A stretch of 64,000 bases of DNA from a virus, in the IMG/VR virus record IMGVR_UViG_2939786809_000002, positions 3,141-67,140 of that record; one strand, given 5' to 3'. Under the pieces are notes generated by a model that had not been told where the DNA came from, searched no databases, and saw only the letters and a list, made by a program, of their open reading frames with translations. The translations under genes and the position numbers were made by a program. Positions 19,456-39,069 of this stretch are shown here, one piece after another. Position 1 is the stretch's first letter. Each line of letters starts with the position of its first letter.

Positions 19456-20121
19456 TCAGTTCCAGGAGGTGCACGCACCCGTCGGCACCAGATAGAAGAT
19501 CTCCGTGGACGCCCTTACGGCCTTGACAGGGTCCGAGTCGCCGAAGTCGAACCACTCTCCGACCATCTGCCTATCAACGAAGCGCCTGTGCAGGTGGGCC
19601 TCCAGCTCTGCGCCACCGCCGAACGACCACAGCACCCGCAGCTCGTAAGCAGACCCAGTCTGGAGGCCGCTCAACCGCCGTTGAAGATTCGATGTAGTCC
19701 CGATCTTCACCACCCCGCTCCGGCCGTCGCCGATCACATACACGACGTTCCCCGCTCCCCGGCGAGGCAAGTGATGAGGACCCCGCTCGGCGACACTCCA
19801 GGAATGCGGCACATCAGTGACCTCCAGCACCGTGTAGAAGACCCCCGAGTTCGCTCGCATCCGCAGGCGCCGCATGTAACCCGCGCCCTCCAGCTCCGAG
19901 AACAGCGCCCGCATCGCGCGCCGCCCCTCACCGGCCGCGTCCCCGCGTGCCTGGCGGGCAGCCCGCGACAACTCGTCGGCGTTGGCCTCCCAGCCCTCCG
20001 GCCGGGCAAGAACGTCCAGCAGCAGCCCGCGCGCCGCATAGGTCAACCGGTCGTCCAGCGCCAAGGCCGCCGGAACGGACAGGCCACCCGCCGAGGCTGA
20101 CCGGTAGATGCGCATAGCCAT
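19456..20121 (-). CDS. HTH (replication-protein-like) fused to GIY-YIG/T5orf172 nuclease domain
   Basis: N-terminal RLTYAARGLLLDVLARPEGW; C-terminal VYVI...VKIGTT...RRLSGLQTG...LEAHLHRRF...GEWF. Confidence 0.8.
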   Translation of the reverse strand: MAMRIYRSASAGGLSVPAALALDDRLTYAARGLLLDVLARPEGWEANADELSRAARQARGDAAGEGRRAMRALFSELEGAGYMRRLRMRANSGVFYTVLEVTDVPHSWSVAERGPHHLPRRGAGNVVYVIGDGRSGVVKIGTTSNLQRRLSGLQTGSAYELRVLWSFGGGAELEAHLHRRFVDRQMVGEWFDFGDSDPVKAVRASTEIFYLVPTGACTSWN

Positions 20122-20187: not shown

Positions 20188-20625
20188 CTAGCGGGCGGCC
20201 CGCACCATCGCCCGCACCTTCTGCGCCACCGCAACCAGGCCGTCAGCGAACGCGTCAGCCCCATCCAGCGGCACGAACGCGTCGAACCCGCCGCCATCCG
20301 CCACATACAGATGCGGCTTCCGCAACTCCGGGTTCGAACTACCCGGCTCACACGACACCTGGACGTGGGCGAGGAGTTGCACCTCGCCATCCAGATCCGT
20401 CAACGTCACGTCCGCCATCTCGCTGCCGTGATCCAGATCCGCGAGATGCTTCACCGACGACGCCACATGATCCTCGACGCAGAACGCGGGGCACTCAACC
20501 CAGATGCGAACACCGTCAACCAAGGCGGGGCGGAGACGAGGAGCCAGCGGCGGGGGCGGAACCGGGGCCGACAGGACCGGGGCGGGGGAGGGCAGCACCG
20601 ACGACTTGTTTTCGGTTACGCTCAT
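20188..20625 (-). CDS. conserved actinomycete mobile-element protein (DUF6907-like)
   Basis: ECPAFCVEDH...LDH motif; RBS gaagaagg. Confidence 0.6.
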   Translation of the reverse strand: MSVTENKSSVLPSPAPVLSAPVPPPPLAPRLRPALVDGVRIWVECPAFCVEDHVASSVKHLADLDHGSEMADVTLTDLDGEVQLLAHVQVSCEPGSSNPELRKPHLYVADGGGFDAFVPLDGADAFADGLVAVAQKVRAMVRAAR

Positions 20626-21355: not shown

Positions 21356-21982
21356 CTAAGTTGCCGGGTTCCGTCGCCCATGGGGGCGCAGCCGGTTCTC
21401 CGGGTCGGTCACGAACAGGCCGAAGCCGTGCAGGAGGGTCAGCCGGCCTTCCCGTCGAAGGATTCGAATGGCGTGGGTGGCGACTGTCTTCCCTGTGCCC
21501 GTGGCTTCGCCGAGCGCGCGGCAGTTGGGAATCCTGGACCCCGGCGGCCATCTGTCCGAGGTGATCTCCAGGCGGATCAGGTCGGCGAGCTTCTCCGCCC
21601 TGCCGCCGCGCCCAGGAAGCTGGGGCCAAGTCTCGGGATCGAACGGCGCCAGGGTGTAGTTGTGGGCCCCGTTGAATCGGGGAGCCTCCGCTCGGATGGC
21701 GATCTCCTCGGCGGCGAAGGCTGCGTCCCGGGATGGAAGCCACTCCACGCGGCTCCTGGCCACATCGGGCCACCAGGCGCGGAACATCTTGTGGCGCTCC
21801 CAGCGGGCCTCGGGGTTGTTGCTGATCCCGATGTAGAGCAGCCGTTCGTCGGTGCCGTAGAGGCGGTAGAGCGCGGTGCGCTCGGGTGGTTCGGCCCCCG
21901 CGTCCTTTCGATCCGGGAGGGCCTGGAGGCTCGGGTGGCCGGTGGGGCGAGGAGTGCTCAAGGCGTACTTTCCTTTCGGCAC
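21356..21982 (-). CDS. GIY-YIG nuclease domain fused to GntR-type winged helix
   Basis: ALYRLY...LLYIGISNNP..RW..H...WW...AEEIAI..E.P.FN, then LADLIRLEI...WPPGSRIP...G...FV. Confidence 0.8.
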   Translation of the reverse strand: MPKGKYALSTPRPTGHPSLQALPDRKDAGAEPPERTALYRLYGTDERLLYIGISNNPEARWERHKMFRAWWPDVARSRVEWLPSRDAAFAAEEIAIRAEAPRFNGAHNYTLAPFDPETWPQLPGRGGRAEKLADLIRLEITSDRWPPGSRIPNCRALGEATGTGKTVATHAIRILRREGRLTLLHGFGLFVTDPENRLRPHGRRNPAT

Positions 21983-22044
21983 GCATGGTGACCATCGCGA
22001 TTCACGCGGTTGCTCCGTGTTGTCGCACGCCCACCGTGACCTAT

Positions 22045-22058
22045 CTCCTTCGAAGGAG
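22045..22058. promoter_or_regulatory. putative Kor/GntR operator O1
   Basis: Perfect 14-bp palindrome CTCCTTCGAAGGAG between the divergent GIY-YIG-GntR and GntR genes. Confidence 0.75.
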
Positions 22059-22143
22059 TCAAGGGCTTCGCGGGTTTCGCCCACTTCGCGCGCCAGATCG
22101 GGGGGTGGCTAACATCTTCGAAGGGGTCGATTTAGGAGGAGTT

Positions 22144-22896
22144 TTGGCACCACGCAAGGGAGAACCCGGGCGGTTCCTGTACAAGGAGCTCGCGGCGGAG
22201 TTTCGGGCGCAGATCCAGTCGGGTGCGCTGGCCCCTGGCGACGCGCTGCCAAGTGAGGCTGCCCTGATGGAGGGGCGCGGTCTCGCGCGGTCAACTGTTC
22301 GCCAGGCATACGACCTCCTGAAGGCCGAAGGCCTGGCGACGGCCAAGCAGGGCAAGGGTGTCTTCGCGCTCAACCCCAAGAAGGTCATCCGGAACGCGCA
22401 GAAGCGGCTGTCCCGAGAGGTCTGGGAGTCTGGGCGGTCGATCTGGAGCGTTGACCTCGAAGGGCGTGATCCAGACGCCGAGGTCGAAGTTGACGCGGAG
22501 ATCGAAGCTCCGGAGTACATCGCGGGGGTGTTGGATAGCCGCCGCGTATGTCGCCGGCGCCGGGTCTTCTCCCTCGATGACCGTACCCTCCAGGTCGCAA
22601 CCTCCTACCTGGATGCCAGCCTTGCGGCTGCTGCTGGCATCGGGCAGGTCGACACCGGGCCCGGGGGGATGTACGCGCGGCTTGCGGACATCGGGCGCGC
22701 GCCCGTGGCTGCGAAAGAGCGCATCAGGAGTCGTGTGGCCATGCCGGACGAGGTGGACGTCCTTGAGGTGGGTGTCGGCTCGTGCGTCATCGTCATCGAG
22801 CGCACGGTCACTGATGCCGAGGGTCGAATCTTGGAGGTCAACGAGATGACGCTCGATGCTGCTCGCTACATCCTGGAGTACGACTTCAACCTCTAG
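22144..22896 (+). CDS. korSA: GntR/UTRA (HutC-type) repressor, KorSA/KorA/TraR-like
   Basis: RBS aggagg plus TTG; LYKELAAEFRAQIQSGALAPGDALPSE...STVRQAY...GKGVF; UTRA C-terminus; heads a tra/spd operon. Confidence 0.85.
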   Translation: MAPRKGEPGRFLYKELAAEFRAQIQSGALAPGDALPSEAALMEGRGLARSTVRQAYDLLKAEGLATAKQGKGVFALNPKKVIRNAQKRLSREVWESGRSIWSVDLEGRDPDAEVEVDAEIEAPEYIAGVLDSRRVCRRRRVFSLDDRTLQVATSYLDASLAAAAGIGQVDTGPGGMYARLADIGRAPVAAKERIRSRVAMPDEVDVLEVGVGSCVIVIERTVTDAEGRILEVNEMTLDAARYILEYDFNL

Positions 22897-22910
22897 CGTC
22901 GCCATTCATC

Positions 22911-22943
22911 GGGCCCCGCAGGCACTGCCTGTGGGGCCCTTTT
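22911..22943 (+). terminator. Rho-independent terminator after the kor gene
   Basis: GGGCCCCGCAGGC-ACT-GCCTGTGGGGCCC-TTTT. Confidence 0.8.
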
Positions 22944-22984
22944 GCGTGCCCGGAAACTCTGCGAACTCTGACCGCTGAGCAAGC

Positions 22985-23041
22985 TTGACAACTCCTTCGA
23001 AGGAGGCCATGGTTAACCCATCGCCTTCTCCTTCGAAGGAG
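22985..23041 (+). promoter_or_regulatory. transfer-operon promoter with two Kor operators (O2, O3)
   Basis: TTGACA at 22985; CTCCTTCGAAGGAG at 22992-23005 (in the spacer) and 23028-23041; candidate -10 CATGGT at 23008. Confidence 0.78.
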
Positions 23042-23067
23042 TCAACCGGCTAGCTATTGGAGATCGA

Positions 23068-23310
23068 ATGACGACCGACACCAGGAGCCACGAGCCCACC
23101 CCGGGCGATGAGCTGCTGACCGCTAAGCAGATCGCCGAGATCATGAAGGTCCACGTGGCGACCGTCTACCGCCTCGCGGACAGCGGCGAGCTGCGCGCCA
23201 TGCGGTTCGGCCGGGGAGAGAGTCGGCGGCGAGGCTTCCGGTGCTGGAAGTCAGTCGTCCTGGACTTCATGCGCGACTCGGAATACCCCGCCGAGGAGGC
23301 TGCGGCATGA
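23068..23310 (+). CDS. excisionase-like HTH_17 DNA-binding protein
   Basis: LLTAKQIAEIMKVHVATVYRLADSGELRAMRFG. Confidence 0.8.
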   Translation: MTTDTRSHEPTPGDELLTAKQIAEIMKVHVATVYRLADSGELRAMRFGRGESRRRGFRCWKSVVLDFMRDSEYPAEEAAA

Positions 23311-23546
23311 CCCCGCCGATCACCCCCGCTGAGCGTGTGGCTGCTGTTCGCCGGTTTGGCACCCCGGCCGGCCCGGAGGTGATCGCCGAGGCGGTTGCCC
23401 TCCTGGAGGCTCTCCTTGCTGCTGCTACCGGGCACGGTGTGACCTTGGCCGACTTCGACGATGCGATCGACCTTCCCGGCGGGTGCCTCGACGTGGTGGT
23501 CGGTATCGCCCGGCAGGCTGAGCGTGCCGCCGAAAGGCGGCGGTGA
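23307..23546 (+). CDS. hypothetical protein
   Basis: ATGA/GTGA-coupled. Confidence 0.6.
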   Translation: MTPPITPAERVAAVRRFGTPAGPEVIAEAVALLEALLAAATGHGVTLADFDDAIDLPGGCLDVVVGIARQAERAAERRR

Positions 23547-23686
23547 CCGTGCTCGGGTCCGCTGACCTCTGTATCGCCGACCAGGCCACGAAGCGCGCCA
23601 TACACCGGGCCGCGCAGGCCGCGAAGGACGCCGAGGCCGCTAAGGCTCGCCGTGAGGCCGCCGAGAAGGCGCGCAAGACCCACTGA
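23543..23686 (+). CDS. small basic helical protein
   Basis: MTVLGSADLCIADQATKRAIHRAAQAAKDAEAAKARREAAEKARKTH; coupled start. Confidence 0.55.
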   Translation: MTVLGSADLCIADQATKRAIHRAAQAAKDAEAAKARREAAEKARKTH

Positions 23687-23782
23687 CCGCCGTGCTGGCG
23701 GGTTGACCAACCCCCGCGGTCCCCGCCAGCACGGCTTCCTACCCCCCTCAACACCCCCACCACTTACTCGAAGGGCACTTCC

Positions 23783-24085
23783 ATGTCTCCTTACGTCTCG
23801 AACGTGACCAGCCTGTTCTCCGGCGACCTCGCCACCGTGTCCGCGTCGATCCGGGACGCCGGCCGGGACATTCTCAACGCCGACATCGACCTGGCCCGCC
23901 AGGAGGCGGACGGCATCGACGCGGCGGAGATCGTCACCCACTACGTGGCGGCCCGCGGCAACTACGGCATCCGGCACTGGCTGCGGTCTCTGGCGGCCGA
24001 GTACGACGCGGCGCAGCCGTTCGGGCCGCGGCTCGTGGACGAGCTCGACCAGCTGGACGGCGTGCACACCCTGGCCGCCGCCTGA
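23783..24085 (+). CDS. hypothetical protein
   Basis: RBS gaaggg; high GC3. Confidence 0.65.
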   Translation: MSPYVSNVTSLFSGDLATVSASIRDAGRDILNADIDLARQEADGIDAAEIVTHYVAARGNYGIRHWLRSLAAEYDAAQPFGPRLVDELDQLDGVHTLAAA

Positions 24086-24189
24086 TGCGCGCCCGAATCC
24101 GGCGCACACTTCGCGCCCTCGCCTGGCTCTGCGGCAACTGCAACACGAACAACCCGAGTGAAGAGCCCGTTTGCCTCACCTGCAGCTGA
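24085..24189 (+). CDS. 34-aa protein with RanBP2-type zinc-finger signature
   Basis: TGATG-coupled; MRARIRRTLRALAWLCGNCNTNNPSEEPVCLTCS fits W-x-C-x2-C-x3-N-x6-C-x2-C. Confidence 0.6.
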   Translation: MRARIRRTLRALAWLCGNCNTNNPSEEPVCLTCS

Positions 24190-24282
24190 CCCCGGCCCGC
24201 TCTGTCGTCCCCAGCCCCCACAGCTGGTGGCGGCAGAGAGGCCCGGGAGTCACCCGGACCCGAACTCAGGTTGGAGGCCCCC

Positions 24283-24483
24283 ATGGGCCGATTCAGGAAG
24301 ACCGCCGAAGAGAAGAAGGCCGTCGCCAAGATGAAGGCCGCGGACGCCGCCCTCAACGAGAACTCGGACCGGGAGTTCAGGGCCGGGATCCGGGAGGAGA
24401 CCCCCGAGTACCAGCGGCTCAACGGTGCGGCGAACGAGGCCGCGGCGGAGGTGTCGTGGTGGCACGGCGGTACCGGGCGCTGA
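24283..24483 (+). CDS. hypothetical protein
   Basis: RBS ggagg; MGRFRKTAEEKK... Confidence 0.65.
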   Translation: MGRFRKTAEEKKAVAKMKAADAALNENSDREFRAGIREETPEYQRLNGAANEAAAEVSWWHGGTGR

Positions 24484-24511
24484 CCCAACCCCGAACCGGA
24501 AGGACTCCTCC

Positions 24512-24592
24512 GTGAGCGACACCGAGCCGATCTTCGCGAGTGACGACAACGGACTGCGCGGCGCGACCGAAGACGAGGACACCGACGACTGA
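24512..24592 (+). CDS. 26-aa acidic peptide
   Basis: RBS gaagga; MSDTEPIFASDDNGLRGATEDEDTDD; coupled to the next ATG. Confidence 0.45.
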   Translation: MSDTEPIFASDDNGLRGATEDEDTDD

Positions 24593-24792
24593 TGTGCCAG
24601 TGCCCCGACAGCAACGCCCGCCGGGGTGACCCGTGCGCGAACCACTGCCCGCAGGAACTCGACCACGAGCACTACTTCGCCCAGGACCGGCCCGCACCGT
24701 GCGGGTGCACTCCCATCACCAGGCAGCCCGGCCGTATCCGGCGGGCACTCACCCGAAAGGACCGCCATGGGCCTGTTCACCCGGATCACTGA
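24592..24792 (+). CDS. small Cys/His-rich protein
   Basis: MCQC...C..HC...H..PCGC; TGATG coupling. Confidence 0.5.
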   Translation: MCQCPDSNARRGDPCANHCPQELDHEHYFAQDRPAPCGCTPITRQPGRIRRALTRKDRHGPVHPDH

Positions 24793-25015
24793 CACCGCGA
24801 CCGAGGTCACCGGCCACGCCAGCCTGACCAGGGATATCCGCAAGGCCGTCAAGGGCGGCGACCAGGAGGCTGCGGCCACGTTCCGGACCGGCACCCTGGC
24901 GGCTGCGCTGACGACCAAGGGCTGCCATGCCCGCGGTCAGGAGGTTGTGGCCTACGTCGAGCAGGTTGTTGCCGCGGACGGCGACGGCCGGCGCACCGGC
25001 TGGCTGAACCGCTGA
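24767..25015 (+). CDS. hypothetical protein
   Basis: RBS aaagga; MGLFTRITDTA... Confidence 0.6.
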   Translation: MGLFTRITDTATEVTGHASLTRDIRKAVKGGDQEAAATFRTGTLAAALTTKGCHARGQEVVAYVEQVVAADGDGRRTGWLNR

Positions 25016-25107
25016 CCTATCAGCCCCGGCCCAGCCGTGAGGCGCCCGATCTAACCGGGCCCGGGGCGCTTCCCGCACCACCCGTCGAGCCCAGAAGGGC
25101 GCACCCC

Positions 25108-25302
25108 GTGAAGAAGCTGATGTTGATCGCCGCAGCCCTGGTGCTGCTGGTCCTGTTCCCCAACCTCGCGCAGGCGGTGGCCACCGTGCTGTCCGCGACC
25201 GTGCAGTTCGTGGCCGCCCAGCCGGTCCTCATCGGGTTCGCGCTCGGCGTCGCCACCTTCGCCCACCTCCGCGGCAAGAACCCCGCCACCGCCCGCATCT
25301 GA
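25108..25302 (+). CDS. small two-TM membrane protein (Spd-like)
   Basis: MKKLMLIAAALVLLVLFP...VLIGFALGVATF; lies in the tra operon. Confidence 0.65.
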   Translation: MKKLMLIAAALVLLVLFPNLAQAVATVLSATVQFVAAQPVLIGFALGVATFAHLRGKNPATARI

Positions 25303-25318
25303 CCGAGAGGACACCGCC

Positions 25319-25594
25319 ATGGACGCCGACACCCTGATCTACCAGTCGAAGAGGGCCCTGGATGGGGACCACCCCCGGCACGGCTTCCTCATCAAGGACG
25401 GGGCCGAGCAGGCATCGGCGCGCGCCCTCGTCGCCCTCGCCGAGCAGCAGCAGGAGACGAACCGTCACCTCGCCAGCATCGCCGAGAGCCTCGCCACGCT
25501 GGCCGACGCATCCACCAACCGCCCGAGCGCCCCGGCCACCGACCCCGAGCCGAAGCGCCGCCTCTGGCTCCCCACCCGCCGCAAGAACGCCTAG
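25319..25594 (+). CDS. hypothetical protein
   Basis: RBS gagagga; short coiled coil. Confidence 0.65.
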   Translation: MDADTLIYQSKRALDGDHPRHGFLIKDGAEQASARALVALAEQQQETNRHLASIAESLATLADASTNRPSAPATDPEPKRRLWLPTRRKNA

Positions 25595-25650
25595 TCGCAC
25601 CACAGAGCCGAACCCACTCGCCCCCACCCGTCCCGGAAGGACACACCGTC

Positions 25651-27000
25651 ATGAGTGCCGACTACCGTTCCTGGGAGGAGCGTGAGGCCACCGCCAAGAA
25701 GACCCGCGCCGAGGCAGAACGTATCGCCGCCGAGGCCGAAGCCGCCCGTACCGCCAGCGCCCAGGCTGCCGAAGCCGGCGCGGCGAGGACCGCCACCGAT
25801 CTTCTCGCCGAGCAGGTCAAGCAGGCCGGGCTGAAGAAGAGGCTCGACGCCGTCGCCGAAGCCGCCAAGGACGAGAAGGCGGAGCACAAGGCCCGGCGCC
25901 GCGAGGCGAGCGCCGACAACGGCACCGCTTTCAAGCGCATCGTCAACGTCGCCGTCGTCCTCGGCCTCCTCGCCGCACTCCCCGCCCAGCTGTCGTACTT
26001 CCTCACCCTCCACAAGGAAGGCGAGAAGAACCCTGGTACCGCGTGGCTCCTCGGGCCGATCCCGTTCTTCCTGGAGCTCCTCGCCTGGGTCGGTGTCCTC
26101 GGTACCCGATGGGCACACCGCAAGGGTCTGCCCCGGTGGCCGTTCTGGATCCTGACCGCGTCGCTGGCCTCGGTCGCCGGATACATCAACCTCGCCCACG
26201 GCACCGACGAGTACGGGATCGTCGCCGGCGTCGCCCTGGCCGCCACGTCGGTGATCGGCCCGGTCCTTGCGGAGGTCCGCGACTTCCTCGAAGGGCGGGC
26301 CGCCGCCGACACCCGAAGCCTGGAGCAGCGGGCTGCCGCGAAGGCCGCAGCGAAGAAGCAGGCCCGAGAGCAGCGGGCGCTCGCGAAGGTACACGCCACC
26401 GAGGACAGGCGGCGCAAGGAACTGTTCAAGCACGAGTTCGCCGAGTACCAGCGGATCATCGTCGCGCACCCCACCGGCGCCATCAGCCGCGAGGCCGCGT
26501 GGCAGCAGGCGTGGGACAACATCCACCTCCTCCCGCTCGCCACAACCGCAGACACGCTCGCCGGCCGCGAGGAAGCCCGCGCCGCGATCAACGCGGTCCT
26601 GTCGAACGCCGACCGCACCCCCGAGAGCGAAGCAGTCGACCGGCTCCTCGCCGAAATCTTCCGCCCCGACGGCGGCGACAGCGGACCTTCCCAGAAGCCC
26701 ACAGAGGGCGGGCCCAAGGGTGGTGGGGGGGGAGGGTCACGGGCCCGCCGACCGGCCGACCCGAAGAAGCCTGGAGCCCTTGGGGGGATTGGCAACCGGC
26801 CCTCTGGTCGCGCCCCCCGAACCGATGCTGTAGAGCCCCTCCGAAGTGAGGACATCGAAGCGGCGAAGAAGCTTCGCGACGCCGTGCCCGCCGACCAGTT
26901 CTCCACTCCCGCCGTTGCCAAGCTCCTCGGCCGCAGCAAGGTCTACGCCCGCCGAGTCCGCGACGCCGTACAGCCCGACGCCACCCAGGAGCAGAAGTGA
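25651..27000 (+). CDS. SpdB2-like integral membrane spread protein
   Basis: N-terminal coiled coil, about 4 hydrophobic helices, Gly/Pro linker, basic HTH-like C-terminus; directly upstream of and coupled to traB. Confidence 0.7.
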   Translation: MSADYRSWEEREATAKKTRAEAERIAAEAEAARTASAQAAEAGAARTATDLLAEQVKQAGLKKRLDAVAEAAKDEKAEHKARRREASADNGTAFKRIVNVAVVLGLLAALPAQLSYFLTLHKEGEKNPGTAWLLGPIPFFLELLAWVGVLGTRWAHRKGLPRWPFWILTASLASVAGYINLAHGTDEYGIVAGVALAATSVIGPVLAEVRDFLEGRAAADTRSLEQRAAAKAAAKKQAREQRALAKVHATEDRRRKELFKHEFAEYQRIIVAHPTGAISREAAWQQAWDNIHLLPLATTADTLAGREEARAAINAVLSNADRTPESEAVDRLLAEIFRPDGGDSGPSQKPTEGGPKGGGGGGSRARRPADPKKPGALGGIGNRPSGRAPRTDAVEPLRSEDIEAAKKLRDAVPADQFSTPAVAKLLGRSKVYARRVRDAVQPDATQEQK

Positions 27001-29222
27001 GCATCGAGACCACCCCCGCCAGCACACCGGATCCCGAGTGGGACAAGCTCGTCTCCGGCTTCTCCGCCGACCCGGCCGAGAAGTCCGCCGGCCCCGTCCT
27101 CCAGAAGACGACCGACGTCCCCGTCAACCGCCCGGACCTCCTCGGCGACATGCCCCTCACGCCGCAGTGGGCGCGGACGTCGACGGGGTGGAGGGCGCGC
27201 GCCGCCGTCGGCAAGGTGAACTCCGTCCGGGCGTTCCGCCGGTGGGTGCGCCGGCAGAACACCGAGCACGGGCACACCGCCCAGGTCTTCCGCGGGATGC
27301 GGCGCACGTTCCTGTGGGTGCAGGGCACCGAAGGCGTCCAGGTCGCCACCGCCCGCCGTGAAGTCCAGCAGGCCCAGGCCGACTACAAGACGGCGAAGTG
27401 GCACCACGGCAAGCGGCTCATCCCCGACAAGGAGAAGGGCAGGCGGCGGACCGAGATGGAGAAGGCGTTCGGTGGATCCGTCACCGCCATGGGCAGGTAC
27501 AAGTCTGCCCAGCGGGACGCCCGGACACGGCGTGCGGTCCGCGGCACGCTCGCCGCCGCGGCCGTCGCAGTGCCGGAGGGCGCCGGGATCTACCTGATCG
27601 GCGGCACCGGCGGTGTCATCGCGACTGGGTCCGCCCTCCTCGCGTTTGCCCTGATCGGCCGGCGCACCACGGGTGGCGAGGTGTACACCGATCGGGACGC
27701 GAAGATCGGTGACGGCGACCGGATGACCGACGACATGATCGACCGGGCGTTCCGCGACGCCGGAATCATCCGCGGCGACCAGGCCGTCGTGTTCCGCTCC
27801 CCGGTCATCCAGGACGGGCGGGCCTGGCTCGCCCACCTGGAGATCACCGGCGGTGTCGAAGTCGCCGACGTCCAGAAGAAGACCGGGCCCCTCGCCTCCG
27901 CCCTCGGCATCCCGAAGCACCAGATGGACATCCGCCACGAAGGACGCGAAGACCACCTCAGCCTCTGGGTATCCATGACCGACCCGTTCGGCCGGACCAT
28001 CACCAACCCGCTCATCGGCACTACCGACAAGGTCAACGCCTGGCGCGACGGGCTCCCGCTCGGCTTCGACAAGCGCGGCAGCATCGTCCTCGCCACCATC
28101 TCCGACTACTCGCTGCTCGTCGGCGGCACCACCCGCTCCGGCAAGGGCATGGCCGTCGCGAACATCCTCGTCGGCGCCATGCTCGACCCCCGCATCCGTG
28201 TCCGCCTCTTCGACGGCAAAGGCACCGGCGAGTACGTCGGTATCGCCCCCGCCCTCGACACGTTCGTCCGCCGCAACCCCGAACGGCTCCGCGACTTCCT
28301 CAAAGTCCTTGTCGCCGAACTGGAACGGCGGACCGAGATCCTCGTCGACCTCGGCGTATCGAAAGCCACCGAGGAGCTCCTGGAGCAGCTCGGCGGCATC
28401 GAGCTCCTCATCGTCGACGAGCTCGCCACCTACACCGTCAAGGGCGGTCTCAACGGCCAGTACGCCGAAGAGATCGTCGAACTCCTCGCCCAGACCGCCG
28501 CGGTCGGCGCCGCAGTCGGGATCATCCTCGTCCTCGCCACCCAGCACCCCAAGGTCGACGTCATCCCGTCCCGGCTCCGCGGCAACTGCAACGGCCGGTG
28601 GTCGATGCGCGTCGAGTCCGCGACCGCGTCGAACACCATCCTCGGGGACGGCGTCGCCGGGGACGGATACGACGCCAGCGACATCAAGAACAGCAAGTCG
28701 ACCCGAGGGCGCGGGTGGCTCACCACCCCCGACACCGGGTTCATCGAAGCCCGCTCCCTGTTCGTCGACGTCGAAGGCGGCGACCTCCGTAAGGCCGCCA
28801 AGGCGGGCATGGCACTTCGTAAGGCCATAGGCCGCCTGCCCTTGCACTGCCCGGACCCGATCGAAGACCAGCTCAAGGCCGACACCGGCATCAGCATGGT
28901 CGCCGGCGGTCCCACCGGAAAGGGCACCCTGGTCCAGGCCGAGGCGGAGCCGACGATCCTCGACCACATCATCAAGGCCGTCACCGCCACCGGCCGCAGC
29001 GAAGCGACCCGCGGCGAGGTCTTCGCCTACATGGCCTCGGTCGACGAGCGGTACGAGCGGGGCGACTCGGAAAGCGACGCCCAGTACGGGTCCCGTGCCG
29101 GGAAGCTCCTGGCCGCCGACTTGGAGGCCGACGACTTCGAGTTGAAGGCCGTGAAGGTGTCGACCGCGGACGGCAGGGAGGGACGCGGGTTCAGGCTCGC
29201 CGACCTCCATGCCGCCCTATAG
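26997..29222 (+). CDS. traB: TraB/TraSA-type FtsK/SpoIIIE conjugal DNA translocase
   Basis: Two TM segments, Walker A GGTTRSGKG, Walker B LLIVDE, ATQHP, C-terminal winged-helix-like region. Confidence 0.9.
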   Translation: MSIETTPASTPDPEWDKLVSGFSADPAEKSAGPVLQKTTDVPVNRPDLLGDMPLTPQWARTSTGWRARAAVGKVNSVRAFRRWVRRQNTEHGHTAQVFRGMRRTFLWVQGTEGVQVATARREVQQAQADYKTAKWHHGKRLIPDKEKGRRRTEMEKAFGGSVTAMGRYKSAQRDARTRRAVRGTLAAAAVAVPEGAGIYLIGGTGGVIATGSALLAFALIGRRTTGGEVYTDRDAKIGDGDRMTDDMIDRAFRDAGIIRGDQAVVFRSPVIQDGRAWLAHLEITGGVEVADVQKKTGPLASALGIPKHQMDIRHEGREDHLSLWVSMTDPFGRTITNPLIGTTDKVNAWRDGLPLGFDKRGSIVLATISDYSLLVGGTTRSGKGMAVANILVGAMLDPRIRVRLFDGKGTGEYVGIAPALDTFVRRNPERLRDFLKVLVAELERRTEILVDLGVSKATEELLEQLGGIELLIVDELATYTVKGGLNGQYAEEIVELLAQTAAVGAAVGIILVLATQHPKVDVIPSRLRGNCNGRWSMRVESATASNTILGDGVAGDGYDASDIKNSKSTRGRGWLTTPDTGFIEARSLFVDVEGGDLRKAAKAGMALRKAIGRLPLHCPDPIEDQLKADTGISMVAGGPTGKGTLVQAEAEPTILDHIIKAVTATGRSEATRGEVFAYMASVDERYERGDSESDAQYGSRAGKLLAADLEADDFELKAVKVSTADGREGRGFRLADLHAAL

Positions 29223-29232
29223 ATCACTTTTG

Positions 29233-29418
29233 CACCCTGCCCCGACCCTGCCCGGACCCGCATCACCGCAGGTCAGCAGGTCGGGCTCCCTGCCCCGACC
29301 CTGCCCCGCGCGGGCAGGGTCACCCCACCCCGGAACGACACCCAGCCCACCTGGGCAGGGTGCGGGCAGGGTCGCCACCTGCGGAAACGCCAGCGCCGGA
29401 CACGGTCCAGGCAGGGTC
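29233..29418. repeat. clt-like locus with TraB recognition repeats
   Basis: (G/C)(A/T)CCCTGCCC at 29233, 29244, 29286, 29297; inverted copies at 29312, 29353, 29364, 29409; paired copies have an 11-bp period. Confidence 0.78.
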
Positions 29419-29451
29419 CGGCACCCCCTCACCGCCACCTAGGAGTCCCGC

Positions 29452-29655
29452 ATGCCGATCACGTTCCGCAAGAGCTTCCGGATCTTCCCCGGGGTCCGGC
29501 TCAACATCAACCGAATGTCCTGGTCGATCACCCTCGGAGCCGGCCGCGGCCCCCGGCACACCATCAGCAGCACCGGCCAGCGCACCACATCGCTCGACCT
29601 ACCCGGCCCCCTCGGCTGGCGCAGGACCCGAACCCGCCGCAACCGCAACCGCTAG
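29452..29655 (+). CDS. DUF4236-family protein
   Basis: ITFRKSFRIFPGVRLNIN...; RBS aggag. Confidence 0.8.
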   Translation: MPITFRKSFRIFPGVRLNINRMSWSITLGAGRGPRHTISSTGQRTTSLDLPGPLGWRRTRTRRNRNR

Positions 29656-29664
29656 GAGGCCGCC

Positions 29665-29850
29665 ATGGAGCGCTACCACTCCCTCTACTTCGTGTCGATC
29701 ATCGGCCCCGCCGTTCTCGGCTTGATCGCCCTCGCTCTCATCGCGCTGCCTGGCGATCCGAGCACCGCCCGCATGCTCATCGGGCTTGCCGTCTATCTCG
29801 CTGTCGTCGTCGGCGGCGGGGTCGTCATGACTCGACGGCTCGACCGGTAA
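29665..29850 (+). CDS. two-TM membrane protein (Spd-like)
   Basis: RBS aggagg; two hydrophobic helices. Confidence 0.7.
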   Translation: MERYHSLYFVSIIGPAVLGLIALALIALPGDPSTARMLIGLAVYLAVVVGGGVVMTRRLDR

Positions 29851-29883
29851 CTGAAGACCACCTCGACAACTAGGAGCCTCCTC

Positions 29884-30390
29884 ATGCAGCTGCCCGAGCA
29901 GCCCGTCGCCGGGCAGCCCACCGACAACCCCCTGGCGCAAGCCGTCAATGAAGCCATCACCAAAGAGCTCGCGAAGACCTACCACCGGGACACCGCCCCG
30001 CTGCCCGTCACCGGATCGGCCCCGCCCGTCGCGCAGCCTGGCCGGGCAGCCATGAGCCAGCGGGCCGTCGACCGCAACACGACCATCCTCACCAGCAGCA
30101 TCCTCACCGCCGTCGCCGGAGGGGCCGTCAGCCTCGTCCTCTGGACTTCGGGCCACGCCAACGAGACGGTCATCGCCTGGATCTGCGGCGGGATCGTTGG
30201 AGTGCCCGTCGTCCTCACGCTGCCCGTGCTGGCCCTGAAGGGACTGATGAAGAGCGTCAAGGAGGCCGCTGAGGCAGCGCCGGCGCCGGTCACCAACCAC
30301 TTCCACGGCCCCGTCCACCACAACAGGCGCACCGTCACCAGCACCACCCGCGGCGTCATCGCCAACACTCGGAACCAGCAAGCCCACTGA
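29884..30390 (+). CDS. SpdD-like membrane protein
   Basis: Pro-rich N-terminus, two TM helices, C-terminal PVTNHFHGPVHH. Confidence 0.6.
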   Translation: MQLPEQPVAGQPTDNPLAQAVNEAITKELAKTYHRDTAPLPVTGSAPPVAQPGRAAMSQRAVDRNTTILTSSILTAVAGGAVSLVLWTSGHANETVIAWICGGIVGVPVVLTLPVLALKGLMKSVKEAAEAAPAPVTNHFHGPVHHNRRTVTSTTRGVIANTRNQQAH

Positions 30391-30415
30391 CTGCCCACCA
30401 CATGCAGGAGATGAT

Positions 30416-30703
30416 GTGGCGATGACGAAGAAGTCGAAGCCCACCCTCGATGAACACCAAGACCTCGGACGGCGCCTCGCCAGCATTCGGGACGAACTGA
30501 GCCGCATCCAGGTTCAGCTGTCAGGCGCCTACCCTCAGACGGGATCAGCTTCCCTGCCCGCGCGGAAGCTGATCAAGGCCCGTGAGGCGATTGACGAAGC
30601 CCGCTCTGCACTGGACAACGCGGTGTTCGCCGAGCACCCGGAGGGCGCCGAAACCACCGTGTACTACCCGCACCCCGAAGATCGGGTACCTCCCGGCAAG
30701 TAG
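30416..30703 (+). CDS. hypothetical protein
   Basis: RBS aggag; last gene of the tra/spd operon. Confidence 0.7.
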   Translation: MAMTKKSKPTLDEHQDLGRRLASIRDELSRIQVQLSGAYPQTGSASLPARKLIKAREAIDEARSALDNAVFAEHPEGAETTVYYPHPEDRVPPGK

Positions 30704-30707
30704 CAGC

Positions 30708-30890
30708 TCACCGCACGACAAGGCCCCGGACCGTCTGGTTCGGGGCCTTCCGTGTCGCACGGGCGATCCAGCTGCCGCCGAGGGAGTTCGTCGGGAACAG
30801 CGTCACCCGCACGTCCAGCAGCCGGCCGAGTTCATCCAGGGCGTCCTGGCACTCCTGCCGGGTGCTGCCGTGGACCGTGTACCTCGCCAT
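30708..30890 (-). CDS. hypothetical protein
   Basis: MARYTVHGSTRQECQDALDELGRLL... Confidence 0.55.
   Translation of the reverse strand: MARYTVHGSTRQECQDALDELGRLLDVRVTLFPTNSLGGSWIARATRKAPNQTVRGLVVR
30720..30749. terminator. hairpin ending the tra/spd operon
   Basis: AAGGCCCCGGACC-GTCT-GGTTCGGGGCCTT. Confidence 0.7.
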
Positions 30891-35937: not shown

Positions 35938-36134
35938 GCCGCGCGCGAACCCCCACCCACCAAACGAAGACCGTCGAACTCCTCGGCAGGCTTGAAGAAG
36001 CCGCACCCCTCCAGCCGACACGACCAGCCGAACCGCGTCGGATGCTTCACCAACACATGGTGGTGATCAGCAACCCGAGGTGTCGCCTGCGCCATCGCGT
36101 ACAGCGCGCTGTCCATGTGGTGATAGCCGCTCAC
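35934..36134 (-). CDS. small His/Cys protein
   Basis: GTGA overlap with the portal stop; HHHVLV...CRLEGC. Confidence 0.55.
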   Translation of the reverse strand: MSGYHHMDSALYAMAQATPRVADHHHVLVKHPTRFGWSCRLEGCGFFKPAEEFDGLRLVGGGSRAA

Positions 36135-37801
36135 GCCGCCCTCAACTCCGATGCATCGGGGTCCTCTTCCTGACCTTCGTCGTACCCGGGCTCCACCTCG
36201 TCGTCCGGCTGCCCCTCGTTCGGCTCCCCGCCACCAGTGTTGAACGGGTCCCCGGCCGGCGTTGCCTGCGCCTTGTCGTCTCGAATCCGCCGCACCTCCG
36301 CCAGCACCTCCGCCTCGTCCCACGATGGCTCCCGCATCTTCACTTTCATGTACGTCGAGATCGCCCCAGCCGCGTCCAGCAGCGACAGCGAGCGCGCGGT
36401 GGCCTCCGGGTCCGGCTGCACCGCCTGCGGCCACGACGCGGTCAGCTCCGCCGCCGGATCCACACCCTTCGCCCCGCAGTGCCTCACGTCGACCATCATC
36501 AGAGTCGTCAGATGCTCCAGCAACGCCGGCCGCTGGTACAGGATCTTCAGGCCGCGGGTCGTGAGGGATTCTTCCTTGCGGGCTGCGACCTCGGTAGCGG
36601 TCACCGCCACCGACCCCTCCTCGCCGTAGGACTGGGCGGAGTAGCCGGCCGACGCCAGGATCTGGCGCCGCAGCGCCTTCGTCGTCGCCTCATGCTCCTC
36701 GACCCGAATCTTGAACTGGATCTCGGTGAGCGAGTCCTTCATCGTCTCCGCGCCGATCAGGCCACCCAGCGCGACGACAACCTCCCTGTCCAGGTCGAAC
36801 GTCGACCCCGAGCCGGCGCCGTCCGTTTCCAGCATCGACTGGGGCACCACGATTTTCGCCTTGCCGAGACGCAGATCGCGCATCCAGGACGTCCAGGACT
36901 CATCCAGGGCATCCATCATCGGCTCGATGCCCGCGAAGTCGCTGCGCCCCAGTGGGGCCGTGTCCGGCACCCCGTCCCAGATCCGGTTGGGCAGCACGTT
37001 CGGCAGGTGTGTGATCAGCAGCCGGTCGACCCCTGTCGCCTGACGACCCTGGCTGTCGGTGCGCTTCACCAGGAACTCGGTCTCGTGGTGGTCGACGAAC
37101 CCCATCTGCATGCCGAGGGTGCTGCCGTCACCCTTGTACACCCCGTACTCGATCGCCCCCGGGGTGTGGTACTCCAGCAGCCGCCACACACCACTGTCCT
37201 CGTCTAGCGGCTCAAGCTCCCGCCACACTGTCGCCGCCGCCAGCATGCCCCACCGCCATTCCGGCACCACGGCGTTCGCCAGGATCACGTCCGACCACGG
37301 GCGCGGGCGCAGCGTCGTGTCCCACACGGCGCGCAGGTATACGTTGGACAGCCCAGCCGTCAGCTCGGCCGCTTCCCGCATCTTGGCGTGGCCGCGGTCA
37401 TCGAGGTACCGGCCGATCTGGGCCTGGGTGGTCTTCGCCGTGGCCTTGTCGGTTGAGTCGCCGTCGACCGTCACCGTGGGGACGTCCGCCCAGAGGAGGT
37501 TCGCGGACATCTCCGCAATGTCCCCGCCGATCGGGACGTGCAGTTTGGCTGCCTGCTGGCCCGGTGACGGCTCCTGACCCCAGAACATGCGCAGCTCATC
37601 ACCACCCACAGCCCGGCGCTTGTCTACTTCGAAGAACGCGCGGGCCACACCGTTCCGGGTGTAGCTGGCCGGCCCCCCGTACACCTGAGCCAAATGCCCG
37701 GTGTCGCCCGCGTACCAGGCCCGCCACATGTCCATGTCGGCGTGCGGAATCTCCAGACGAGGCGGCGGCCACGGTGTGTTCCCAGACGGGGGCAGCGGCA
37801 T
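36131..37801 (-). CDS. portal protein (SPP1-like)
   Basis: 556 aa directly after terL; MPLP...PWPP, LGRSDFAGIE..MDALDESWTSW. Confidence 0.88.
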   Translation of the reverse strand: MPLPPSGNTPWPPPRLEIPHADMDMWRAWYAGDTGHLAQVYGGPASYTRNGVARAFFEVDKRRAVGGDELRMFWGQEPSPGQQAAKLHVPIGGDIAEMSANLLWADVPTVTVDGDSTDKATAKTTQAQIGRYLDDRGHAKMREAAELTAGLSNVYLRAVWDTTLRPRPWSDVILANAVVPEWRWGMLAAATVWRELEPLDEDSGVWRLLEYHTPGAIEYGVYKGDGSTLGMQMGFVDHHETEFLVKRTDSQGRQATGVDRLLITHLPNVLPNRIWDGVPDTAPLGRSDFAGIEPMMDALDESWTSWMRDLRLGKAKIVVPQSMLETDGAGSGSTFDLDREVVVALGGLIGAETMKDSLTEIQFKIRVEEHEATTKALRRQILASAGYSAQSYGEEGSVAVTATEVAARKEESLTTRGLKILYQRPALLEHLTTLMMVDVRHCGAKGVDPAAELTASWPQAVQPDPEATARSLSLLDAAGAISTYMKVKMREPSWDEAEVLAEVRRIRDDKAQATPAGDPFNTGGGEPNEGQPDDEVEPGYDEGQEEDPDASELRAA

Positions 37802-37816
37802 GACAGATCCTTTCGG

Positions 37817-39067: not shown

Positions 39068-39069
39068 AG

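What the first reader, a model, noticed from the sequence alone, without database searches (positions are those of the whole stretch)
21356..30749. Siphophage carrying an apparently intact TraB/clt/Spd/Kor conjugation system: a candidate dual-mode (virion plus mating) replicon
Seen: between the replication genes and the packaging genes lies one long operon (23068-30703). It is driven by a TTGACA promoter gated by operators of an adjacent GntR/UTRA repressor. It encodes an SpdB2-like membrane protein coupled to a 741-aa FtsK/SpoIIIE ATPase, followed by an 8-10 bp repeat locus and more small membrane proteins. The phage head, tail and lysis genes also look intact. Established: Streptomyces plasmids and AICEs (pSAM2, pIJ101, pSVH1) move dsDNA with a single TraB translocase bound at clt, spread within mycelium via Spd proteins, and are controlled by Kor GntR repressors. 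Plasmid-phages with transfer genes (e.g. pZL12) are a known but rarely characterised precedent. Inference: the module has no integrase or RCR Rep of its own, so it looks domesticated by the phage. TraB would then transfer the whole excised phage circle, or the chromosome when integrated, letting the phage reach receptor-negative hosts without lysis.
Basis: partly seen in the sequence, partly recalled or inferred. Interest (0 to 1): 0.92.

Follow-up and report, generated by a model that had tools for sequence, protein, structure and literature searches.

The report
Streptomyces prophage with built-in TraB conjugation module
A 78-kb Streptomyces prophage with intact virion genes also carries, as a conserved part of its own genome, the one-protein DNA-transfer system (TraB, its binding repeats, spread proteins, repressor) that Streptomyces plasmids use for mating, and dozens of other Streptomyces prophages carry it too.

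Summary
The window is 64 kb of a 77.9-kb IMG/VR provirus with intact packaging, head, tail and lysis genes. Between its replication and packaging genes lie:
- a GntR/UTRA repressor at 22144-22896 (+). The minus-strand ORF at 21356 is a GIY-YIG protein, not the repressor.
- three perfect 14-bp palindromes;
- a same-strand gene string that includes a SpdB2-architecture membrane protein overlapping a 741-aa TraB. This TraB is 32% identical to pSVH1 TraB and has an FtsK motor fold and a C-terminal winged helix.
- a 9-copy repeat array directly after traB;
- further small membrane proteins.

No integrase, Rep or flanking att repeats belong to the block. The only integrase lies about 39 kb away, outside the window.

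The block is intact and under purifying selection in two sister proviruses. It recurs upstream of three different packaging modules in 13 viral contigs and in at least 16 of 46 usable species-level genome loci. So it is an integral phage module, not a chance AICE insertion.

Transfer itself is inferred, not shown. The idea has a tested precedent in plasmid-phage pZL12, so this is a new variant of a known kind.

One oddity is unexplained: the Walker A motif reads GKG in this whole TraB subfamily.

Other first-reader notes from this scan on the same window covered the repeats and palindromes.

The parts
21356..21982 (-). GIY-YIG nuclease domain plus winged-helix protein. It is a conserved left neighbour of the module, not the Kor repressor.
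   Evidence: Pfam GIY-YIG 2e-5 and GntR-type HTH 7e-9. The frame plot supports the minus strand. Homologues sit beside the GntR gene in L003, L020, L022, L023 and L009.
22045..22126 (.). Operator-like sites upstream of the repressor gene: a perfect 14-bp palindrome at 22045-22058 and a degenerate copy at 22113-22126.
   Evidence: exact and 3-mismatch matches; sequence read.
22144..22896 (+). GntR/UTRA (HutC-type) regulator, a TraR/Kor-like repressor candidate, 250 aa.
   Evidence: Pfam GntR 5e-17 and UTRA 1e-17. 31% identical to pSVH1 TraR over 216 aa, E 7e-19.
22911..22939 (+). Intrinsic terminator hairpin after the repressor gene.
   Evidence: 13-bp stem with 11 GC pairs and a T-run.
22985..23041 (+). 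Control region of the tra operon: TTGACA at 22985-22990 and two perfect palindromes CTCCTTCGAAGGAG at 22992 and 23028.
   Evidence: No full consensus promoter is called.
23068..23310 (+). First gene of the operon: an 80-aa HTH_17 (excisionase/MerR-type) protein.
   Evidence: Pfam HTH_17 1.8e-9. The same position is occupied in G002 and in L009, L019 and L023.
23543..25594 (+). Run of small ORFs (47, 100, 70, 66, 82, 64 and 91 aa). The 64-aa one is a membrane protein.
   Evidence: GC3-based gene calls. No Pfam or PHROG hits. TM prediction. Partly conserved in L002, L003, L016 and L020.
25651..27000 (+). SpdB2-architecture membrane protein of 449 aa: N-terminal coiled coil, 3-4 TM helices between residues 92 and 207, and a C-terminal domain. 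It is translationally coupled to traB.
   Evidence: E 4e-5 to the pZL1 protein that NCBI annotates as DUF2637, which in turn matches pSVH1 SpdB2 at E 1e-3. No direct match to SpdB2 or Pfam. dN/dS 0.11-0.29.
26997..29222 (+). TraB-type FtsK/SpoIIIE dsDNA translocase of 741 aa. Walker A is GTTRSGKG (377-384), Walker B is IVDE, and a winged helix spans residues 654-740.
   Evidence: 32% identical over 614 aa to pSVH1 TraB, E 1e-60. Pfam 2.8e-9. phrog_1358 9e-86. FtsK motor in the PDB by sequence and by fold, E 2e-15, target-normalised TM-score 0.6-0.67.
29234..29417 (.). clt-like array: 9 copies of ACCCTGCCC (6 exact), four direct then inverted, paired copies 11 bp apart.
   Evidence: Conserved at the same place in L002 and L003. 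Other TraB homologues are followed by arrays of a different word.
29452..29655 (+). DUF4236 protein, 67 aa.
   Evidence: Pfam 1.2e-16. Conserved next to traB modules in several loci.
29665..29850 (+). 61-aa protein with two TM helices (Spd-like by position).
29884..30390 (+). 168-aa protein with two TM helices, the most constant downstream partner of traB.
   Evidence: phrog_19266 2e-42. Present in 11 of 13 viral loci. Its homologue pZL12.70c lies directly after the pZL12 tra gene.
30416..30703 (+). Last ORF of the string, 95 aa, soluble.
   Evidence: ORF list, translation and TM scan. No Pfam hit.

Best explanation
The block at 22045-30703 is a complete Streptomyces-type dsDNA transfer module: a TraR/Kor-like GntR repressor with its operators, Spd-type membrane proteins, the TraB hexameric pump and a clt repeat array. 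It is a stable, selected component of a temperate siphophage genome.

Proposed mechanism:
1. In the lysogen the GntR protein sits on the 14-bp palindromes and keeps its own gene and the tra operon off.
2. When repression is relieved, the operon is expressed, starting with an excisionase-type HTH protein.
3. The winged helix of TraB loads onto the repeat array just after traB on the excised or replicating phage circle.
4. TraB pumps the double-stranded phage DNA into a neighbouring hypha.
5. The SpdB2-like protein and the small membrane proteins carry the DNA across septal cross-walls.

This would give the phage a route of spread that needs neither lysis nor a receptor, alongside virions.

Shown here: gene content, homology, fold, repeats, conservation and selection. 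Inferred: repression, loading at the array, and any transfer.
For: TraB:
- Homologous to the biochemically studied pSVH1 TraB (32% over 614 aa, E 1e-60).
- FtsK motor fold and a C-terminal alpha-beta-alpha-alpha-beta-beta winged helix in a model of mean pLDDT 80.

Repeat array:
- It sits directly after the traB stop and is unique in the window.
- It is conserved in sisters L002 and L003.
- It is replaced by arrays of other 8-9-bp words after diverged TraBs in L009 and L010. This is what is expected if each winged helix reads its own clt.

Gene order and regulation:
- The order GntR, small ORFs, SpdB2-like, traB, small membrane proteins matches pSVH1 and pZL1.
- The GntR protein is 31% identical to pSVH1 TraR.
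- Three perfect palindromes sit at its own promoter region and at the operon promoter region.

Conservation:
- Intact genes with dN/dS 0.11-0.29 in three proviruses.
- The same core sits upstream of three different packaging modules: 13 IMG/VR loci, an SPP1-portal type locus from a genome assembly (L026) and 16 of 46 usable GTDB species loci.
- Phage context is clustered on the TraB tree: 4 changes against 7.3 in shuffles, and none of 500 shuffles is as low.

Not an independent element:
- No integrase or Rep in the block and no att-like flanks.

Precedent:
- pZL12 transfers with a tra gene plus two adjacent genes and also has a phage cycle (PMC3583192, citing Zhong 2010).
Against: - No experiment or expression data: no sequencing run held more than 37% of the stretch's sampled words, and none of the holders was RNA.
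- The Walker A motif is GKG instead of GK[ST], and the basic residue of the ATQ[RK]P motif is lost, in all 120 closest homologues. ATP-driven pumping is therefore not assured.
- The 449-aa protein has no direct sequence match to SpdB2.
- Virion production by this element is unproven. No TraB or 449-aa homologue occurs in 50,697 GenBank phage records, so no isolated phage of this kind exists apart from ZL12.
- att sites and prophage ends could not be located.
Confidence: 0.6

Rival explanations
1. The module serves only spread within one mycelium. After infection or induction it moves phage genomes across septal cross-walls into neighbouring compartments, so that the whole colony and its spores become lysogenic or productive. 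It does not mediate donor-to-recipient mating.
For: - Spd-type membrane proteins dominate the block.
- Thoma et al. [quoted passage not shown]
- The module lies among early and middle genes, just before packaging, in every phage context seen.
Against: - TraB plus clt is the part that suffices for intermycelial transfer in plasmids: only the traB deletion markedly reduced pSVH1 transfer (PMC4447253).
- A repressor of the Kor type suggests control in the lysogen, as in plasmids.
Confidence: 0.2
2. The block is a leftover or hitch-hiking piece of an AICE or plasmid that phages pick up by recombination. It gives the phage nothing.
For: - The same TraB subfamily also occurs in AICE-like islands with their own integrase (L025 and the Kitasatospora clade) and on plasmids (pZL1, CP075612).
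- The flanks are mosaic.
Against: - The genes are intact under purifying selection.
- The position and core order are the same across diverged phages with three packaging types.
- Large phage-context clades appear on the TraB tree.
- There are no att-like flanks.
Confidence: 0.06
3. The GKG-type TraB is not a DNA pump here. It could act as a site-specific DNA anchor or partition device, as a growth-arrest (kil) function, or as an exclusion function against incoming plasmids, AICEs or phages.
For: - The deviant P-loop and the loss of the ATQ[RK]P basic residue are invariant across the subfamily.
- PHROGs files the family under 'moron, auxiliary metabolic gene and host takeover'.
Against: - The same P-loop is found in the tra region of a large plasmid that has the classic GntR, DUF2637 protein, TraB layout (pZL1).
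- The Lys of the P-loop, Walker B (DE) and the motor fold are all kept.
- The co-varying repeat arrays fit a clt-loading role.
Confidence: 0.09
4. The element no longer makes infectious virions. It would be a conjugative integrative element that keeps a phage-derived particle module for another use, for example a transducing or tailocin-like particle.
For: - Only known as proviruses and plasmids.
- No relative among isolated phages carries the module.
Against: - The full set of TerS-like, TerL, portal, MuF, scaffold, capsid, tail, endolysin and integrase genes is intact.
- CheckV completeness is 91-100%.
- The relative pZL12 does form phage (GenBank record 'Streptomyces phage ZL12').
Confidence: 0.05

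Closest known systems
Streptomyces plasmid-phage pZL12 / phage ZL12 (GQ919031; Zhong et al. 2010)
   Same: - A siphophage genome that also carries an FtsK-like tra gene with adjacent membrane-protein genes and a GntR regulator, placed next to the packaging and head genes.
- Conjugal transfer needs the tra gene and two neighbours (PMC3583192).
- It shares with the window the endolysin (81%), a tail protein (78%), a GDPD protein, a tyrosine integrase (36%) and the g58 homologue pZL12.70c right after tra.
   Different: - pZL12 is a 90-kb circular plasmid with ParAB. The window's element is a provirus with no ParB.
- Its tra protein, pZL12.71c, is not BLASTP-similar to the window's TraB, nor is pZL12.73c similar to the 449-aa protein.
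- The packaging and head genes are of another type.
tra/spd region of plasmid pSVH1 (NC_007431; TraR, SpdB3, Spd79, SpdB2, Orf108, TraB, clt)
   Same: - Same order: GntR regulator, small ORFs, a roughly 410-450-aa four-TM protein, TraB, then repeats at the traB 3' end, then small membrane proteins.
- TraB is 32% identical and TraR 31% identical.
- 14-bp repeats lie in the regulator's target region (PMC4447253).
   Different: - pSVH1 is a 12.6-kb rolling-circle plasmid with its own Rep.
- Its regulator is divergent rather than co-oriented.
- The repeat word differs.
- pSVH1 TraB has a canonical GAGKS P-loop and ATQKP.
AICEs (pSAM2, SLP1, pMEA300 type)
   Same: - Integrated elements that move as dsDNA by a single FtsK-like Tra protein, with Spd proteins and a GntR Kor repressor (PMC2440964, PMC3218068).
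- The same TraB subfamily occurs in AICE-like islands (L025).
   Different: - AICEs are 9-24 kb, have their own int/xis and Rep next to tra, and carry no virion genes.
- Here the block has neither int nor Rep and sits inside a 78-kb phage.
88-93-kb circular Streptomyces plasmids such as NZ_CP046906.1 (unnamed, uncharacterised)
   Same: - The whole virion module is collinear with the window at 50-90% aa identity (TerL 85%, capsid 90%), with the same divergent packaging/head layout.
- A tra-like block and a GntR gene lie at the same position.
   Different: - Plasmid, not provirus.
- The tra-like block is not homologous (976-aa P-loop protein).
SpdB2 homologues in phages phiC31 and VWB; conjugative prophage Phi1207.3 of Streptococcus pyogenes
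   Same: - The idea that a phage borrows plasmid spread or transfer functions (PMC4447253).
- A prophage capable of conjugal transfer (PMC4260502).
   Different: - As cited in PMC4447253, only SpdB2 homologues are reported for phiC31 and VWB. Neither matched the window's TraB.
- The transfer machinery of Phi1207.3 was not examined here.

Membership tests
TraB (Streptomyces FtsK-like conjugative dsDNA translocase) | Sequence homology to an experimentally characterised TraB | tested here: met
   32% identity over 614 aa to pSVH1 TraB, E 1e-60; tblastn E 2e-41.
TraB (Streptomyces FtsK-like conjugative dsDNA translocase) | FtsK/SpoIIIE motor domain fold | tested here: met
   Pfam PF01580. PDB FtsK by sequence, 7e-10. 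Foldseek to the FtsK motor, E 2e-15, target-normalised TM-score 0.60-0.67 over about 400 residues.
TraB (Streptomyces FtsK-like conjugative dsDNA translocase) | Catalytic P-loop (Walker A GxxxxGK[ST]) and Walker B | tested here: inconclusive
   - Walker B (IVDE) and the P-loop Lys are present.
- Ser/Thr is replaced by Gly (GTTRSGKG) in all 120 closest homologues and in plasmid pZL1 TraB.
- pSVH1 has GAGKS.
- Activity cannot be tested here.
TraB (Streptomyces FtsK-like conjugative dsDNA translocase) | [quoted passage not shown] | tested here: met
   The AF2 model has H654-664, E669-671, H672-682, H694-711, E719-722 and E728-733, with block pLDDT of 83-91. No separate fold search of this domain was run.
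TraB (Streptomyces FtsK-like conjugative dsDNA translocase) | N-terminal membrane-association region | tested here: inconclusive
   Long helices span 144-221 with an Ala/Gly/Ile-rich stretch at 186-221. The 19-residue hydropathy scan did not call a TM helix there, and it called none in pSVH1 TraB either.
TraB (Streptomyces FtsK-like conjugative dsDNA translocase) | Cognate clt: several 8-9-bp repeats at or just after the traB 3' end | tested here: met
   - Nine copies within 184 bp, starting 12 bp after the stop.
- Only one other exact copy in 64 kb.
- Conserved in the sisters.
- Different words follow diverged TraBs.
- Binding is untested.
SpdB2 (pore-forming spread protein) | Architecture: N-terminal coiled coil, four TM helices, C-terminal domain; gene just upstream of traB | tested here: met
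   - TM peaks at 92-110, 133-151 and 189-207, with a weaker segment near 164-182.
- pSVH1 SpdB2 has peaks between 92 and 137 (three overlapping windows) and at 189-207.
- 4-bp overlap with traB.
- SpdB2 description taken from PMC4447253.
SpdB2 (pore-forming spread protein) | Sequence similarity to SpdB2 of pSVH1 | tested here: not met
   - BLASTP E > 5 and no Pfam family for either protein.
- There is only a chain: E 4e-5 to the pZL1 DUF2637 protein, which matches SpdB2 at E 1e-3.
- It is therefore filed as 'works like', not as a proven member.
Kor/TraR (GntR repressors of Streptomyces transfer genes) | GntR HTH plus UTRA domain, adjacent to the tra/spd operon, with repeated operators at its own and the tra promoter | tested here: met
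   Pfam. 31% identical to TraR. Three perfect 14-bp palindromes at 22045, 22992 and 23028. Binding and kil-override are untested.
AICE (actinomycete integrative and conjugative element) | Own int/xis and Rep beside tra, 9-24 kb, bounded by att repeats | tested here: not met
   - No integrase, recombinase or Rep domain in 21356-30749.
- The single tyrosine integrase lies at genome 72486-73502 and there is no serine recombinase.
- The longest flanking direct repeat is 14 bp, against 12-16 bp in shuffles.
Phage-plasmid of the pZL12 type | Plasmid maintenance (ParAB) together with virion genes and tra | tested here: not met
   - No ParB domain in G000, G001 or G002.
- The records are classed as proviruses.
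- The identical TraB lies on a 365-kb contig.
- Virion genes and tra are present.
Temperate tailed phage (Caudoviricetes, siphovirus-like) | TerL, portal, major capsid, tape measure, endolysin, integrase | tested here: met
   CheckV completeness is 91%. Particle formation cannot be tested here.

The most novel reading that the evidence does not exclude
A large, so far undescribed class of Streptomyces and Kitasatospora temperate phages, with at least three different head/packaging types, routinely moves in two ways. The phages travel as virions and, through their own repressor-controlled TraB-clt-Spd module, as naked dsDNA between and within hyphae. The module is swapped back and forth with AICEs and plasmids. 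In this subfamily TraB works with a non-canonical GKG P-loop.
Probability: 0.45. Interest if true: 0.8.

Novelty: new variant of a known kind. Interest (0 to 1): 0.62.

Why it matters
If the module works as in plasmids, these phages can spread without lysis, without a receptor and past adsorption-based resistance. They could colonise a whole multigenomic mycelium from one entry point.

That would blur the line between prophage, AICE and plasmid in the main antibiotic-producing genus, and it bears on three things:
- how lysogeny is established in hyphae;
- how gene flow in Streptomyces is counted: surveys that require int, Rep and Tra close together (PMC3218068) would probably miss such elements, and phage annotation tends to treat the translocase as a moron (PHROGs category);
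- strain engineering and phage control in fermentations.

The comparative result makes the question directly testable. Strains of the S. griseus group (S. parvus JCM 4069, S. badius, S. anulatus) carry near-identical copies. Their TraB copies are 90-98% identical and the 449-aa protein is 95% identical.

The invariant GKG P-loop also raises a clean enzymological question about FtsK-family motors.

Tried and rejected
- Megablast of the block against GenBank phages found nothing; against plasmids it gave one weak hit.
- tblastn of TraB and of the 449-aa protein against 50,697 phage records found nothing.
- BLASTP of the window's TraB and 449-aa protein against the tra genes of pZL12 and of plasmid NZ_CP046906.1 gave no significant similarity, so orthology with pZL12's tra was rejected.
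- Pfam on the 449-aa protein and on pSVH1 SpdB2 matched no family, even at E 1.
- The search for att sites failed: no tRNA and no end repeats over 15 bp in the 78-kb record, and no att-like repeats around the block.
- The operator palindrome is absent from all related loci, so its conservation could not be used.
- The consensus promoter scan called no site.
- Sequencing-run search: the best holder had 37% of the sampled words and no holder was RNA.
- The Zhong 2010 pZL12 paper is not in the library. Its findings are cited second-hand.
- The careful phylogeny did not finish in time. Only the quick SH-aLRT tree is reported.
- The panel-based context survey can only give a lower bound. Loci with neither packaging genes nor an integrase in the 10-kb flanks stay unclassified.

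Full report
**Setting.** The window is bases 3141-67140 of a single 77,904-bp IMG/VR record classed as a provirus, CheckV 91% complete. GC content is about 68%. The closest protein homologues are from Streptomyces anulatus, S. badius, S. parvus and related strains. An identical TraB lies on a 365-kb contig, so the element is integrated.

ORF lists are noisy at this GC content, so I called genes by third-position GC and checked doubtful places with a frame plot.

**The phage.**
- Left part: DnaN, a PD-(D/E)XK nuclease, a DnaB-type helicase and many small genes.
- Packaging genes, on the minus strand: a MuF-like protein, a TerS-like protein (phrog_5536), TerL and portal. TerL is 417 aa (39070-37817) and 85% identical to a PBSX-type TerL.
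- Diverging on the plus strand: scaffold, major capsid, head-tail genes, a 1954-aa tape measure and tail proteins.
- An amidase endolysin lies at 62747-63700. A GDPD protein and a tyrosine integrase (genome 72486-73502) follow beyond the window.
- There is no ParB and no serine recombinase.

**The block.**
- The finding's interval begins with a minus-strand GIY-YIG plus winged-helix gene (21356-21982). This is not the repressor.
- The GntR/UTRA gene is 22144-22896 on the plus strand. It is 31% identical to TraR of pSVH1.
- The palindrome CTCCTTCGAAGGAG occurs exactly three times in 64 kb: at 22045 upstream of the regulator, and at 22992 and 23028 between a TTGACA hexamer and the first operon gene. 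A degenerate copy lies at 22113.
- A strong terminator (22911-22939) separates the regulator from the operon.
- The consensus scan finds no full sigma-70 promoter, which is not unusual for Streptomyces. The promoter is therefore plausible rather than shown.
- The string 23068-30703 starts with an HTH_17 protein and runs through seven small ORFs to a 449-aa protein. That protein's stop overlaps the GTG start of the 741-aa FtsK/SpoIIIE protein.
- After a 229-bp gap come a DUF4236 protein, a 61-aa two-TM protein, a 168-aa two-TM protein (phrog_19266) and a 95-aa protein.

**TraB.**
- The 741-aa protein aligns with pSVH1 TraB over 614 residues (32% identity, E 1e-60). It also matches 60 actinomycete plasmids.
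- An AlphaFold model built on 42 homologues (mean pLDDT 80) shows N-terminal long helices, an FtsK-type motor and a C-terminal winged helix.
- Foldseek puts FtsK motor domains first (E 2e-15), followed by the conjugation coupling protein TcpA.
- Walker B and the P-loop lysine are present, but the P-loop reads GTTRSGKG. All 120 closest homologues have G-x-T-R-x-G-K-G. The residue aligned with the Arg of FtsK ATQRP, and with the Lys of pSVH1 ATQKP, is variable and non-basic.
- The same loop occurs in the tra region of plasmid pZL1.
- I cannot tell whether this changes catalysis. It is conserved, not decay.

**clt-like array.**
- Twelve bases after the traB stop, ACCCTGCCC occurs six times exactly and three times with one mismatch within 184 bp, first direct and then inverted. 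The rest of the window has one exact copy.
- The array is kept in the two sister proviruses.
- After the diverged TraB of L010 there is an array of GCCCCTGTG/CACAGGGGC at 10-bp spacing. After that of L009 there is CTGATCGG/CCGATCAG at 11 bp.
- Different TraBs with different repeat words at the same place is the pattern known for TraB and clt in plasmids (PMC3583192).

**SpdB2-like protein.**
- The 449-aa protein has no Pfam family and no BLASTP match to pSVH1 SpdB2.
- Its layout matches the published description of SpdB2 (PMC4447253) and my hydropathy scan of it: coiled coil 1-90, hydrophobic helices between 92 and 207, and a C-terminal domain.
- It matches the pZL1 protein that NCBI names DUF2637 at E 4e-5. 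That protein matches SpdB2 at E 1e-3.
- I file it as SpdB2-like in architecture and position only.

**Is it the phage's own?**
- Nothing in the block encodes an integrase or Rep. The flanks share no direct repeat longer than chance gives.
But that integrase sits at the far end of the provirus, beyond all the virion genes. G001 and G002 likewise have one terminal tyrosine integrase each.
- Two IMG/VR proviruses of 79-81 kb (CheckV 100%) carry the core from the 449-aa gene through traB and the repeat array at 87-89% nucleotide identity, and the portal 6-7 kb further on at 83%. The regulator and small ORFs around the core are swapped.
- traB and the 449-aa gene are full length in all three, with dN/dS of 0.17-0.27 and 0.11-0.29.

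**Wider survey.**
- A profile search found 13 viral contigs with TraB at 38-90% identity. Most of them keep parts of the order GntR, Spd-like gene, traB and g58 homologue: g58 in 11 of the 13, GntR in 6, the Spd-like gene in 7. The core lies next to either the window's portal type or an HK97-type TerL/portal/S78 set.
- A third type, with an SPP1-like portal, appears in S. albogriseolus.
- Among 49 loci from species-representative genomes, 46 were long enough to judge. At least 16 of these have phage packaging genes within 10 kb downstream of traB, and 4 have an AICE-type integrase.
- On a quick TraB tree the window falls in a fully supported clade of 12 loci. Nine of them are in phage context, with all three packaging types. 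An 11-member, mainly Kitasatospora clade is AICE-like. Phage context is more clustered than in any of 500 label shuffles.
- The module is thus long resident in phages, and it is exchanged among phages, AICEs and plasmids.

**Relatives among plasmids.**
- The virion module is collinear, at 50-90% aa identity, with the 91-kb circular plasmid NZ_CP046906.1. At the same position that plasmid has a GntR gene and a different, non-homologous tra-like block.
- pZL12 (phage ZL12) has the same general layout and shares lysis and tail genes, an integrase, and the g58 homologue directly after its tra gene. Its tra protein is not similar to this TraB.

**What is known.**
- pZL12 is a studied plasmid-phage whose conjugal transfer needs a tra gene and two neighbours (PMC3583192, citing Zhong 2010; the paper itself was not available).
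- Thoma et al. noted SpdB2 homologues on phiC31 and VWB and suggested that they spread phage DNA (PMC4447253).
- My literature searches found no description of integrated prophages carrying TraB with clt, nor of their frequency. The library is incomplete, so this absence is weak evidence.

**Verdict.**
- The claim that the module is an integral, selected phage component is well supported.
- The claim that it transfers the phage is a reasonable, untested inference.
- I rate it a new variant of a known kind: an integrated counterpart of pZL12-like dual-mode elements, with a pSVH1-type TraB of a deviant P-loop subfamily.
- Its real interest lies in the breadth of the class rather than in this one locus.

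Noticed in passing
window 28125-28148 (TraB residues 377-384) and residues 514-518: The Walker A motif is GTTRSGKG (Gly instead of Ser/Thr, with an Arg inside the loop) and the ATQHP motif lacks the basic residue. The GKG loop is invariant in the 120 closest homologues and is also found in plasmid pZL1 TraB. pSVH1 TraB and the prophage TraB of L010 keep the canonical motifs.
   Followed up: partly
window 36131-57270 versus L004 (NZ_CP046906.1 27148-68815): The whole virion module is collinear with a 91-kb circular Streptomyces plasmid (TerL 85%, capsid 90% aa identity). At the same position that plasmid carries a non-homologous tra-like block with a 976-aa GVTGSGKG protein. Three further 88-93-kb plasmids share the portal.
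   Followed up: partly
window 29884-30390; L006 7970-8353 (pZL12.70c): The 168-aa two-TM protein (phrog_19266) is the most constant companion downstream of traB in viral loci. Its only match in GenBank phages is the gene directly after the tra gene of pZL12.
   Followed up: partly
window 23068-23310; G002 28981-29139: An excisionase-type HTH_17 gene leads the tra operon in the window's element (G000) and in G002. G000 has a second HTH_17 gene at genome 1212-1487. If the operon leader is the recombination directionality factor, excision and transfer would be co-regulated.
   Followed up: no
window 36131-40460 (minus) and 40612 onward (plus): The packaging genes (MuF-like, TerS-like, TerL, portal) are transcribed divergently from the scaffold/capsid/tail genes. 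This unusual layout is shared with plasmid NZ_CP046906.1.
   Followed up: partly
window 19456-20115 (-), 20188-20625 (-), 21356-21982 (-): T5orf172/MUG113, DUF6907 and GIY-YIG plus winged-helix genes form a leftward cluster beside the repressor. DUF6907 and GIY-YIG also flank the module in S. liliifuscus (L009) and other loci.
   Followed up: no
L059; P0107, P0129; P0073: Streptomyces-like spd and traB genes sit in assemblies labelled Kofleriaceae (a MAG) and Mesorhizobium sp. B2-3-3. This is probably mis-binning or contamination.
   Followed up: no
window 29439-29655: The GC3 criterion picked a minus-strand ORF here, but the plus-strand ORF 29452-29655 is a clear DUF4236 protein (Pfam 1e-16). 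This is an example of a shadow frame in high-GC DNA.
   Followed up: yes
L031 (Streptomyces parvus JCM 4069, NZ_BMRY01000007.1 208753-230936): This locus has the closest TraB in a named culture-collection strain: 90% identity over the whole protein and 97% over the motor region. Yet the panel found no 449-aa homologue and no portal within 10 kb. Its neighbourhood differs and was not examined.
   Followed up: no
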